A DNA stretch of 64,000 nucleotides, from contig OX597814.1 of the NCBI GenBank assembly GCA_951406725.2, forward strand, positions 158,968,001 to 159,032,000, read 5' to 3'. How positions within the stretch are numbered: the stretch's first letter is position 1; every line of letters begins with the position of its first letter. This document shows positions 417 through 62,643 of this stretch, in pieces. The stretch is from Octopus vulgaris. Lineage: Eukaryota. The position numbers and the translations under genes were made by a program. Under the pieces are notes generated by a model. It was given only the letters and a program-made list of their open reading frames with translations, did no database searches and was not told the DNA's origin.

Positions 417-3354
417 CAACTGTAGATTCAACTTCAGACGGTTTTTCTGAACGAAAGTTAATACGAAGTACAATAAGCAGGTTGTTCGATTATCTCATGC
501 ACAAAACACTTTTGTTCAAATACTTAGTTATGTAGTTATACGCTTATAAATAGTATATCATTATAAATTTCTTACAATGGTAATGCATCTTCTAATTACT
601 TTTAATTAGCACATGTTTTACTTTTAATATAGATTGTCTTAAAAATCATTAACTAATTTGAGAATCATTCGAAATAATTATCATTCTCTAAATATGCTAT
701 AAATTTACAAGAAAACTATCAAAATTATTCTTTAGCATCTACGTTGAAATATTCTTTCCATAAAATGTATTTACATTAGTGAGTTCCATATTTTTATAGC
801 TAATGTGCTTACCTATGCGAGATTCGGTTTCTCTAACAAATTCTGCAAAATCAAAATCGTTATTCATTAATGATTACTTTCATCATTTCGTGAAAGAAAA
901 AAAGCTTAAATAGTTTGAATTCAATTAAATTCATCAGAGAATCTAGATTGGCGTATTTGTCAGTATACTTTCATATCAATTTCTTAAGTATAACTTAATT
1001 TGAAAAATGTCCTAAAGTTCAATATTTAGTATAAGAAGGAATACTATAAATCGTATATATCAATTCATACTAAGGCAAATTACACTTCTAGTACGCATAT
1101 CGATAAAAATAATAATCATTAAGAAATGTTTTACTGACTATAATAATTCTAATAATATAGGTGCTCAATTTTCATTGAATCAATTAAGAAAACACTTACG
1201 AACTGTGGCATCGACCTCAGAAGGTTGTTCTGAATATGGAATAAAAGGTGACATCAGATTTTGCACCGTGCACAAATAAAATATAGACGGACAGATGCAT
1301 GAATGCATAAAAAAACTTCTCTACACTTTTAAAATTTAACGGTATGTTGTTCGAAACTATACAATACACTTACGTAAAAGGTATATTCGCAATTTTGAAT
1401 ATGTATTGAAGTTTTATGACATATGTTAGATGCGTTTGAAAAGTAGACCAATAATTGGAGAGCACTTACAAAAATTTATTTCATGCTTGAAACAATCGTG
1501 AATATTTTTTAAGGATTTTTAATAATAATGACAAATCGATAATTTACAGGTATATGGAGATTTACATATTTAAAAATTACTTAAAATTTAGAAGTTTGAA
1601 AACAATTCTAGACGAAATCTATAGTATTGTGACTCAAGCGTATTATAGTAATAACGAAAATAGAAGATCGCTCACCTTTAGGACGTTCGTCCTGTGTCAC
1701 AATATCTGTGAAATTAATTGAATGAAATTGTAATTGATTCTCAAGCATTTGCGGACAAAAAACTAAAAATGATAGTTCTTTTAATATCATACGATGTATT
1801 ATGGAAAATGATTATATTGAGAAACAGTAAAGTATGTTTCAAATATTAGCAGTGGCAAATTTTGTAAACAAACTTTATGATGAATAAAAGTCTGCATATG
1901 ATACATTTTATCATTTTATGTATTATTTGACTAGGACATTCAATGTATAATACTGAAACGCGATAAAGCAATAGCATTTTCACAAAAAGCATTTGCATAT
2001 CATCGAGATTGTATTACTGATTATATCATTACGTACCAAGTACAATATGTCGTTTCAGCAGAATCTTTCTCTCTTTCTTTCTCCCCCTCTCTCTCTTTCT
2101 ATACCTCTCTTTCTTTCATCGTTTGTCTATGATTTGGAAGTGGCTTTTGCAATGTATAGCCAATATTTAGGTACAATACCAGTAATTTCTGGTGAGAGTT
2201 AATGGATACCATCAGCCCCAGAAAAGTATCAGTTCATTACATGAAGGGAAACAATACAAAGATGTATACACACACACACACACACATGTATATACATATA
2301 TATGAAATAATTTTAGTACCTAATTCAACTGAATCTTAATTGCCTTATATAATATATATATATCATATATCATATATACGAGAGCAGAATACAACAGGAA
2401 ACTTACATCATAAATTACATAATCTTTACAAGTTTCACTTGCGAATACTAGAATGTTGTGCGAAAATTGTTACCTAAACGATTGCATCCACCCATCTACA
2501 CCCCTTGTATATATATAGATACACAAACACACACACACACACACACACACACACACACACACATATATATATATATATATATATATATATATATATATAT
2601 ATATATATATGTATGTATGTATGTATGATGTATGTACGTATAATATACAGAGATAGATAGAGAGATAGAGAGACAGACAGACAGACAGACAGGCAGGCAG
2701 ATACTATGAAGTTCTATAATGTTTCTGTCTCCCAAATTTCATTCAAAGTATTCACCTATTTTTATTACTAAGTTATTAAATGACTATGACTATTCCCAGT
2801 CAGAACTACTTCGTCCATCGAAAAGAGGCCATATCGTTCAAATATCTATCCAAACAAATTTGAGGCACTTTCATTCTTTTCAAATACGATAGAATACCAG
2901 AGACTATATAAAGACAGATGAAGACATCAAAATGAAACTTAGCGACAAGCGGAAGCAAGAAATCATAAAAGAATAAACTATCACTCACCAACAGTAGATT
3001 CCACCTCAGAACGTGTTTCTAATAAAAGGTAAAAGTAAAGATATACCCCCATCAATTATATGATGCAAACAATGAAACATTGTGCGTTTTCAAATCATGA
3101 ATTTCCGATATAAATTTCGACTATCCCCAAGCTGTTACACTTTATTGAGCATAATATATATTGAACTTTACTAAAATCGTAAATATGTTAAAAAAGGAAG
3201 TGTAAACAAAGTAGATTTTTAAAATGTAGTTACATTTCAGTAAACGATTTTAACTTAAAAATTAGAGACTTTAATATCTTCATGTTGATATACCGCTTGA
3301 AGAATAATTATTTTAGTAGCTTACCTGTACGAGTAACTTTTTCCGTTACGATCT
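417..3354 (-). CDS. Unit 1, six microexons: [60 protein letters not shown]
   Basis: Exons F 3325-3354, E 2989-3018, D 1676-1705, C 1200-1229, B 813-842, A 417-446; all AG/GT. Exon C ends in C rather than G, so the next junction codon is CAA (Q). Confidence 0.9.

Positions 3355-62643: not shown

What the first reader, a model, noticed from the sequence alone, without database searches (positions are those of the whole stretch)
417..62643. Hidden giant array of 94 equal-length (30-nt) symmetric microexons encoding a modular repeat protein
Seen: 94 exon-like islands, each exactly 30 nt between a YAG acceptor and a GTRAG-type donor on the minus strand, in a fixed six-type cycle over 62 kb. Coding sequence is only about 2.8 kb (under 5%) and is not recovered by ORF calling. 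In the old units (1-5) the introns are barely alignable, yet exon length, splice sites and peptide are kept with many synonymous changes (for example Arg as CGT/CGC/CGA/CGG), which points to purifying selection. Established: tandem symmetric small exons tune protein length in the titin PEVK region and diversify Schistosoma micro-exon genes; uniform 10-codon exons at this copy number are unusual as far as I know. Inference: this is the variable region of a very large protein and is probably missed or fragmented by automated annotation.
Basis: partly seen in the sequence, partly recalled or inferred. Interest (0 to 1): 0.93.

Follow-up and report, generated by a model that had tools for sequence, protein, structure and literature searches.

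The report
Giant microexon array in octopus obscurin
An octopus gene for the giant muscle protein obscurin carries an insert built from about 265 tiny exons of mostly ten codons each; they are spliced into RNA and kept by selection, and may let the animal adjust the protein's length much as vertebrates do with titin's spring.

Summary
The window has 94 minus-strand 30-nt exons; 93 have GT donors and one has GG. It shows only a third of the array. Flanking DNA gives 265 canonical microexons (256 x 30 nt) over 233 kb, all phase 1, encoding 2,637 aa without a stop. The array lies inside the Ig tandem of an octopus obscurin/UNC-89 gene (Ig...SH3-RhoGEF-PH-Ig-Fn3), the only one a genome search found. 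Contigs of four probable RNA runs from two studies join the exons at exact GT-AG ends. dN/dS is 0.18-0.26 among old units. Related repeats occur in O. bimaculoides RefSeq obscurin (92 blocks, none matching the window's exons) and in Argonauta (48 blocks), so annotation has it in part. Ten literature searches found no description. The peptide is E/T/V/S-rich with 5% proline, so it is not PEVK. Best reading: a disordered, splice-tunable spacer or spring, a convergent counterpart of titin PEVK in a different giant protein. Alternative splicing is only hinted at, and function is untested. The scan had noted a small ten-exon look-alike in a euglenid, nothing on this DNA.

The parts
417..62643 (-). 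Window part of the microexon array: 16 units, 94 exons of 30 nt, phase 1-1, introns 288-2565 nt (median 383). The whole array spans G000:C1:159199059-158965869 (233 kb, 265 canonical exons plus 3 with damaged donors).
417..446 (-). Type F microexon; RNA-type contigs join it, or a close copy, to the next (type A) exon below the window and to the type E exon above it
   Evidence: joint 7016->9217 in 3 of 4 runs; joint 9246->9613 in 1 of 4 (20 letters on the short side)
813..842 (-). Type E microexon at the upper end of RNA joints
5123..5152 (-). Type F microexon of unit 2; its sequence stands between an E-type and an A-type exon in contigs of all 4 runs
   Evidence: table 5c; a 12-base core of those letters matched only this exon
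417..19852 (-). Old, diverged units 1-5 (dN/dS 0.18, dS 0.40; short introns near shuffle-level identity)
13320..15087 (-). Unit 4: four exons only (C-like, D, E, F); A and B absent, frame kept
21251..31557 (-). Units 6-8: a young triplication (neighbouring units 97.5-98.8% identical, introns included)
39435..62643 (-). Units 10-16: young block of about 3.9-kb units, neighbours 95-97% identical; continues above the window
62614..62643 (-). Type A exon with a GG instead of GT donor, probably skipped without frameshift; the same defect is in the next unit up (C1:159034567), which differs at 5 of 3924 bases

Best explanation
The 30-nt islands are true coding exons of an octopus obscurin/UNC-89 gene. 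They form a 2,637-residue, acidic, low-complexity insert between 14 upstream and 21 downstream single-exon Ig domains, ahead of SH3-RhoGEF-PH, more Ig and 12 Fn3 domains. SHOWN: exon identity, host gene, splicing of several junctions, purifying selection, and related repeats in two other octopods. INFERRED (history): a two-exon module (a V/I/T-rich 'X' exon plus an xPSEVE-type 'Y' exon, 20 aa) was triplicated into a six-exon, 60-aa unit, which grew by local tandem duplication. INFERRED (mechanism): every exon is phase 1-1 and a multiple of three, as are the flanking Ig exons, so any subset, or the whole array, can be skipped in frame. The insert is most likely a disordered polyanionic spacer or entropic spring whose length can be set by splicing in steps of about 3.7 nm of contour, from zero to about 1 micrometre. 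It would thus work like titin's PEVK region but inside obscurin, changing the reach and compliance between the N-terminal Ig anchor and the SH3-RhoGEF end. In C. elegans the UNC-89 SH3 binds paramyosin (PMC4865318, passages); whether the octopus one does is untested.
For: Host gene: Pfam I-set, SH3, RhoGEF, PH and fn3 in exons on the same strand. The SH3 exon's best solved structure is obscurin 1V1C at E 1.5e-19, the next at 1.8e-5. Of 10 long homologs looked up, 6 carry or cluster with obscurin/unc-89 names and 4 are unnamed. It is the only match of this SH3 in the genome. O. bimaculoides XP_052826240.1 'obscurin, partial' and XP_014775820.1 map exon by exon at 81-100% identity. Splicing: joints with GT-AG ends Ig|B in 3 of 4 runs, B|A 4 of 4, A|F 3 of 4, F|E 1 of 4; introns have almost no depth. 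Selection: dN/dS 0.18 (units 1-5) and 0.26 (units 1-9); 39 synonymous vs 32 non-synonymous distinct variants on 41 vs 121 sites, p 1.3e-7; per-type pN/pS 0.26-0.54 across the array. Disorder: net charge -0.157 per residue, 39% charged, disordered side of the Uversky boundary; no Pfam family other than Ig-related or spurious hits on the Argonauta protein, none in its repeat part. Hints of skipping: in runs X1 and X2 the Ig contig ends exactly at the exon's 5' edge (depth 84 and 114) while the joint to exon B has depth 24 and 27, whereas in X5 one contig runs on. A branch at that base needs a partner exon not ending in G; the last upstream Ig exon ends in C, and only 6 of 265 microexons end otherwise than in G. 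Two O. bimaculoides models use different parts of the array.
Against: No skipped junction was seen directly; contig depth is a poor measure, and the tool showed only part of its loose ends. The four runs are only guessed to be RNA, their tissue is unknown, and I laid them at 85% likeness on one 10-kb stretch with 4 microexons, so some contigs come from other copies and most junctions of the array are untested. The differing gene models may reflect assembly gaps or prediction choices. Proline is 4.9% and PEVK residues 48%, unlike titin's spring; the sequence is rich in beta-branched residues, and the best AlphaFold model is all strand, though at pLDDT about 50. No kinase exons were found, unlike long obscurins. 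Elasticity, localisation and protein-level expression were not tested. Variant counts are not independent because copies are related.
Confidence: 0.6

Rival explanations
1. The repeat is structured or becomes so on binding. Each X exon plus the tail of the Y exon before it forms a beta strand and the xPSE motif a turn, giving a long beta-meander, or a tandem beta-zipper that adds strands to Ig domains or other sarcomeric partners. Exon number would then set the number of binding sites or the length of a semi-rigid ribbon.
For: Near-strict X/Y alternation (228 of 245 adjacent X/Y-class pairs alternate) and hydropathy autocorrelation 0.59 at 20 and 0.64 at 60 residues. V+I+T make up 37%. The best of five AlphaFold models of a 280-residue Argonauta stretch puts 12-15-residue strands in register with the 20-residue period. 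Sequence, not just composition, is conserved: 81% block identity to Argonauta, 95% to O. bimaculoides.
Against: pLDDT is 41-53 over the repeats, and the other four models average 32-44 (single sequence, no alignment). Foldseek found no match at E<=0.001, and its best rows are Ig domains matching the control Ig part. High net negative charge opposes a free-standing sheet. X-X and Y-Y neighbours, and 24/27-nt exons, are tolerated.
Confidence: 0.2
2. A constitutively spliced linker whose copy number drifts. Selection keeps frame, splice sites and amino-acid pattern, but the number of units changes by unequal crossing-over with little effect, and splicing does not regulate length.
For: Young blocks of near-identical neighbours (up to 99.9%), lost exons, and 3 exons with damaged donors. 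The O. bimaculoides model has fewer copies where G000 has young repeats. All junctions actually seen join neighbours in genomic order. dN/dS is 0.80 among young units, on few changes.
Against: The contig break at the Ig edge in 2 of the 3 runs where that edge is visible points to a second upstream partner. Alternative splicing of one-domain-per-exon tandems is documented for obscurin (PMC2196875, PMC12812942, passages).
Confidence: 0.18
3. Not a gene feature: a non-coding macrosatellite or an assembly artefact whose units happen to hold splice-like motifs.
For: The young units are 95-99.9% identical tandem copies; one pair differs at only 5 of 3924 bases and could be a false duplication.
Against: Exact spliced joints, open frame in 163 of 163 distinct exons, third-position-biased divergence, and orthologous peptides in two other species.
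Confidence: 0.01

Closest known systems
Vertebrate obscurin (OBSCN, isoform A) and C. elegans UNC-89
   Same: Tandem Ig domains, one per exon, then SH3-DH-PH and more Ig; the order matches vertebrate obscurin A (PMC2196875, passages). One gene in invertebrates (PMC12812942, passages). UNC-89 has low-complexity inserts too: a KSP region (PMC2120741, abstract) and a 645-residue disordered elastic interkinase sequence (PMC13242403, listing only).
   Different: Vertebrate obscurin's tandem Ig domains are mostly joined without linkers or insertions (PMC2196875); here 2,637 residues from 265 microexons split the tandem. There are 12 C-terminal Fn3 domains, and no kinase exon was found.
Titin PEVK region
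   Same: More than 100 short repetitive exons in a giant muscle protein; local duplication; copy number differs between species; missed by gene finders; length tuned by splicing (PMC6469411, passages).
   Different: Different host gene (octopus titin and twitchin are separate entries). 265 exons against 113 in human; 30 nt against a mean of 93 nt given there for one PEVK subregion; 48% PEVK residues and 5% proline against about 70% PEVK; a regular 2- and 6-exon super-repeat.
Drosophila Sallimus (I-band titin) long and short isoforms
   Same: Spliced length of an elastic region correlates with, and sets, sarcomere and myosin-filament length (PMC12063666, abstract and section 6): the model for the mechanism proposed here.
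   Different: Sls is a titin in the I-band; this is obscurin, an M-line/thick-filament protein in other animals. No microexon array of this kind was mentioned in what I read.
Schistosoma micro-exon genes (MEGs)
   Same: Runs of very short symmetric exons (recalled; papers seen only as search listings).
   Different: MEGs encode small secreted, fast-evolving proteins (recalled; listing of PMC4350168). This is a purifying-selected insert in an intracellular-type giant protein, with many more exons.
O. bimaculoides XP_052826240.1 'obscurin, partial' and Argonauta hians GAB1597548.1
   Same: Orthologous gene; the models hold 92 and 48 blocks of the same 10-residue repeats.
   Different: Database models only. 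The O. bimaculoides blocks align to array exons 27-80 and 110-146 of 265, none of the 119 lowest, which include all window exons.

Membership tests
Obscurin/UNC-89 | SH3 followed by DH (RhoGEF) and PH domains | tested here: met
   Pfam on exons and on the O. bimaculoides ortholog P0317
Obscurin/UNC-89 | SH3 of obscurin type rather than Trio/Kalirin or other | tested here: met
   PDB 1V1C E 1.5e-19 vs Kalirin 0.005; long homologs named obscurin/unc-89; no tree built
Obscurin/UNC-89 | Long tandem of I-set Ig domains, one per exon | tested here: met
   14 upstream and 21 intact downstream Ig exons of about 264-273 nt, plus 3 broken copies
Obscurin/UNC-89 | Single gene in invertebrates | tested here: met
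   1 match among 6 candidates in G000 (lower bound by the tool's own note)
Obscurin/UNC-89 | Two C-terminal kinase domains in long isoforms | tested here: inconclusive
   No kinase match in about 125 kb below the Fn3 block, none near the locus among 20 genome matches, none in O. bimaculoides models. Kinase-less isoforms exist (obscurin as first described, PMC2196875; UNC-89-A/E, PMC4865318), and exons further away are not excluded.
Obscurin/UNC-89 | IQ motif (vertebrate forms only) | not tested
   none
Obscurin/UNC-89 | M-line / thick-filament localisation in muscle | not testable with these tools
   tissue of the runs is not given
Titin PEVK region | About 70% Pro, Glu, Val, Lys | tested here: not met
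   47.9% PEVK, Pro 4.9%
Titin PEVK region | Lies in the titin/connectin gene | tested here: not met
   Host is obscurin; other proteins are listed as octopus titin and twitchin
Titin PEVK region | More than 100 short repetitive in-frame exons | tested here: met
   265
Titin PEVK region | Muscle-type-specific alternative splicing | tested here: inconclusive
   contig branch hint only
Titin PEVK region | Entropic-spring behaviour under force | not testable with these tools
   charge-hydropathy suggests disorder
Schistosoma MEG | Most of the coding sequence made of microexons; small secreted protein (recalled) | tested here: not met
   array is about 30% of an 8,500-9,000-aa Ig/RhoGEF protein; signal peptide not tested

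The most novel reading that the evidence does not exclude
Muscle-type-specific splicing of 0 to 265 ten-codon exons makes octopus obscurin a finely graded molecular ruler or spring (steps of about 3.7 nm, range about 1 micrometre). It would help set thick-filament spacing or length in different muscles, and be part of the answer to how coleoid cephalopods tune contraction speed by ultrastructure rather than by myosin isoforms (PMC4757648, passages).
Probability: 0.15. Interest if true: 0.85.

Novelty: new variant of a known kind. Interest (0 to 1): 0.6.

Why it matters
It shows a giant, in-frame, modular exon array arising in obscurin, with exons about a third the size of titin's PEVK exons and more than twice their number. 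I found no larger microexon array in the papers searched, which is not proof that none exists. It gives a defined candidate for an open question in cephalopod muscle, where speed seems to be tuned by filament geometry rather than myosin type, and long-read cDNA from a few muscles would test it directly. It is also a natural test of how a spliceosome handles hundreds of near-identical 30-nt exons, and it shows that public models of this gene are partial or split.

Tried and rejected
The run search listed no holder on record as RNA; 17 of its 20 holders were RNA guesses, and I laid 4 of them. The first homolog search with the SH3 exon gave one unnamed hit; the near-length Ig search gave mostly single genomic ORFs without repeat peptides (15 of 28 read). 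ESM Atlas with the downstream proline-rich exon gave only Ig clusters under 0.9: no information. AlphaFold on a 280-residue Argonauta stretch was low-confidence (mean pLDDT 52), and its fold search found nothing for the repeats; the G000 repeat itself was not folded. The kinase search found no exon near the locus. A second pass for missed microexons, using ortholog peptides, found no convincing extra exon, and two exons in an O. bimaculoides model have no counterpart in G000. The DNA search showed the repeat only at this locus (47 of 47 matches; lower bound). Ten literature searches found no paper on this array or on cephalopod obscurin structure. A 2026 obscurin review has no hit for 'mollus'; a 2026 splicing preprint that includes octopus has none for obscurin or titin (its supplements are closed and could bear on this). 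The paper on C. elegans TTN-1 disordered repeats was not held. Most subscription papers are outside the library. Rejected: satellite or artefact; titin or twitchin as host; MEG membership; PEVK membership. No tree of SH3-DH-PH was built. Genomes of other cephalopods could not be read, so exon structure in them is inferred from protein models only.

Full report
OBSERVATION. A homology scan seeded with six exons found 95 matches in the window. I dropped one (36838-36809: no donor, in-frame stop), leaving 94 segments of exactly 30 nt on the minus strand between 62643 and 417, in 16 units of types A-F. All follow CAG or TAG; 93 of 94 are followed by GTAAG or GTGAG, and the top one by GG. The pattern YAG-30-GTRAG occurs 94 times on this strand (93 array exons and one chance match), once on the other strand, and at most 5 times in 100 shuffles.

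THE WHOLE ARRAY. The window is G000:C1:158968001-159032000 in a 2.8-Gb genome. In flanking DNA the array runs from C1:159199059 to 158965869, 233,191 bases. It holds 265 canonical exons: 256 of 30 nt, 5 of 27, 4 of 24. Three more homologous copies have damaged donors, and two further matches were spurious. All are phase 1-1; 259 of 265 end in G. Read in order they give 2,637 residues with no stop: E 24%, T 16%, V 15%, S 9%, R 7%, I 6%, P 5%. Of 163 distinct 30-nt sequences none has a stop in this frame, against 55 and 92 in the other frames. B, D and F are related (19-23 of 30 bases between consensus sequences) and A, C and E more weakly (13-20 of 30), and the two classes mostly alternate, so the six-exon unit is most simply a triplicated two-exon module. 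For 36 of 39 E exons the most similar copy is within 4 places, and there are several young blocks, the mark of local tandem duplication.

HOST GENE. Upstream lie 14 single-exon Ig domains and three more Ig domains, with a first mapped exon at C1:159301614. Downstream lie 21 intact and 3 broken Ig exons, with ten other 30-nt P/V/E-rich microexons between them. Then come SH3, RhoGEF and PH exons, a long proline-rich repeat exon, more Ig and 12 Fn3 exons, ending near C1:158843700. The SH3 exon matches obscurin's SH3 (PDB 1V1C, E 1.5e-19; next 1.8e-5) and is single in the genome. Its long homologs include proteins named obscurin or unc-89. O. bimaculoides XP_052826240.1 'obscurin, partial' and XP_014775820.1 'obscurin-like' map exon by exon at 81-100% identity, so the animal is an octopus and the gene is its obscurin, at least 458 kb long. 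With all exons the protein would be about 8,500-9,000 residues (my sum). No kinase exon was found.

EXPRESSION. No listed run is on record as RNA. I laid contigs of four RNA-guess runs (two studies, two organism labels) on a 10-kb stretch holding the first downstream Ig exon and four microexons, two of them in the window, at 85% likeness. Depth sits on exons and on a few intronic repeats. Joints fall on the predicted ends with GT-AG: Ig|B in 3 of 4 runs, B|A in 4 of 4, A|F in 3 of 4, F|E in 1 of 4. Letters lying between joints match the window's F exon at 5152-5123 (4 of 4 runs) and a D exon at C1:159143716 (3 of 4), so copies from other parts of the array are spliced too. Because single exons are 30 nt, the tool's 31-letter bridging rule cannot be met per exon. 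But one contig in X5 has 134 letters on the Ig exon and 95 beyond it, with the same depth at the Ig|B and A|F joints.

SELECTION. Pairwise dN/dS is 0.18 for units 1-5, 0.26 for units 1-9 and 0.80 for the young units 10-16, where there are few changes. Distinct variants are 39 synonymous and 32 non-synonymous on 41 and 121 sites (p 1.3e-7; copies are related, so this overstates independence). Across the array pN/pS is 0.26-0.54 per type. The repeats are shared with other octopods: 92 blocks in the O. bimaculoides model (95% identical, aligned to array exons 27-80 and 110-146) and 48 blocks at the start of Argonauta hians GAB1597548.1 (81% to the best G000 block), the latter running straight into the downstream Ig tandem. 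A cuttlefish model (CAE1238872.1) ends its Ig tandem in a few T/E/S-rich repeats, which may or may not be related.

ALTERNATIVE SPLICING: A HINT. In X1 and X2 the contig over the 5' part of the Ig exon stops exactly at the exon edge (depth 84 and 114), and the joint to exon B has depth 24 and 27; in X5 there is no break; X6 shows no such joint. Since the intron and most microexons end in G, a break at that base implies a partner ending in another base. The last upstream Ig exon ends in C, and a direct Ig-to-Ig join is in frame; only 6 of 265 microexons are other candidates. This fits skipping of the whole array in some samples. But the partner was not displayed, depth on contigs is a poor measure, and tissue is unknown. 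The two O. bimaculoides models also start the array at different exons, which may be splicing or prediction.

MECHANISM. The insert has net charge -0.157 per residue, 39% charged residues, and falls on the disordered side of the charge-hydropathy plot. At 0.37 nm per residue its contour is about 0.98 micrometre and its random-coil radius about 21 nm (standard polymer constants, recalled). I judge a disordered, length-adjustable spacer or spring most likely (0.6). This rests on analogy with titin PEVK (PMC6469411, passages), with Sls isoforms that set sarcomere and myosin-filament length in flies (PMC12063666, abstract and one section), and with the elastic interkinase segment of UNC-89 (PMC13242403, listing). 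The main rival is a beta-strand repeat (0.2): hydropathy has a 20-residue period, and one of five AlphaFold models gave a beta-meander, but at pLDDT about 50 and without a fold match. A constitutive linker drifting in copy number remains possible (0.18). A quarter of the residues are Ser or Thr, so phosphorylation could tune either form; this is untested.

COMPARISON AND NOVELTY. The gene is an obscurin by SH3-DH-PH, Ig tandem and orthology; the kinase criterion is open. The insert works like PEVK on my reading but is not PEVK: wrong host, 48% PEVK residues, 5% proline. Vertebrate obscurin's Ig tandem is mostly without linkers (PMC2196875, passages). Ten searches found no description of the array, yet parts of it already stand in public protein models, so it is undescribed as far as I could search, rather than unseen. 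Coleoid muscles appear to tune speed by filament length (0.81 vs 7.4 micrometres in squid tentacle and arm) and not by myosin isoforms (PMC4757648, passages), which makes a length-tunable obscurin worth testing; nothing here links the two yet. The scan's index held one note on a ten-exon symmetric array in a euglenid, judged constitutive, and nothing on this DNA or its look-alikes.

VERDICT. Real, spliced, conserved among octopods, host identified. New variant of a known kind; interest 0.6. The ruler reading has probability about 0.15 and would deserve about 0.85.

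Noticed in passing
window:34331-34669 (+): Mariner/Mos1-type transposase fragment (Pfam HTH_48, E 2.7e-20) inside the enlarged E-F intron of unit 9.
   Followed up: partly
G000:C1:158955118-158930865 (L022-L024): A second family of ten 30-nt phase-1 microexons, P/V/E-rich, interleaved between Ig exons; two such linkers appear in the O. bimaculoides model P0317.
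   Followed up: partly
G000:C1:158943406-158940671 (L023): Three Ig exon copies with stops or frameshifts inside the downstream tandem; a 100-base N gap lies at C1:158946926.
   Followed up: no
L030:7514-8575 (-), C1:158876575: A single long exon with about 25 copies of a 12-residue P/E/V/A/K repeat after the PH and Ig domains: a PEVK-like segment in the same gene, built without microexons; also present in O. bimaculoides.
   Followed up: partly
G000:C1:158863316-158843705: Twelve tandem single-exon Fn3 domains end the gene model, an arrangement not seen in the vertebrate or nematode homologs mapped; one more Fn3 exon lies 60 kb further down at C1:158782937.
   Followed up: partly
L027:4955-5119 (-), C1:158903119: A second, weak SH3-like exon (Pfam SH3_10, E 0.0016, below cut-off) before the main SH3; annelid, hemichordate and crinoid homologs also match the SH3 query two or three times.
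   Followed up: no
G000:C1:159034567 and window:62643: Two adjacent 3,924-base units differ at 5 positions and share the GG donor: a very recent duplication or an assembly duplication.
   Followed up: partly
G000:C1:159199059-159175165; near 159115713, 159078514, 159059772: Other exon cycles within the array: a four-exon cycle with a 27-nt exon at the 5' end, and four copies of a Trp/Tyr-containing group with a 24-nt exon, also present in Argonauta and O. bimaculoides. The only Trp residues of the array lie here; possible binding sites.
   Followed up: partly
G000:C1:159067713 (L004): A type A exon whose normal donor is lost; a weak GT three bases earlier would give a 27-nt exon that creates a stop with the next exon (stop read by eye).
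   Followed up: no
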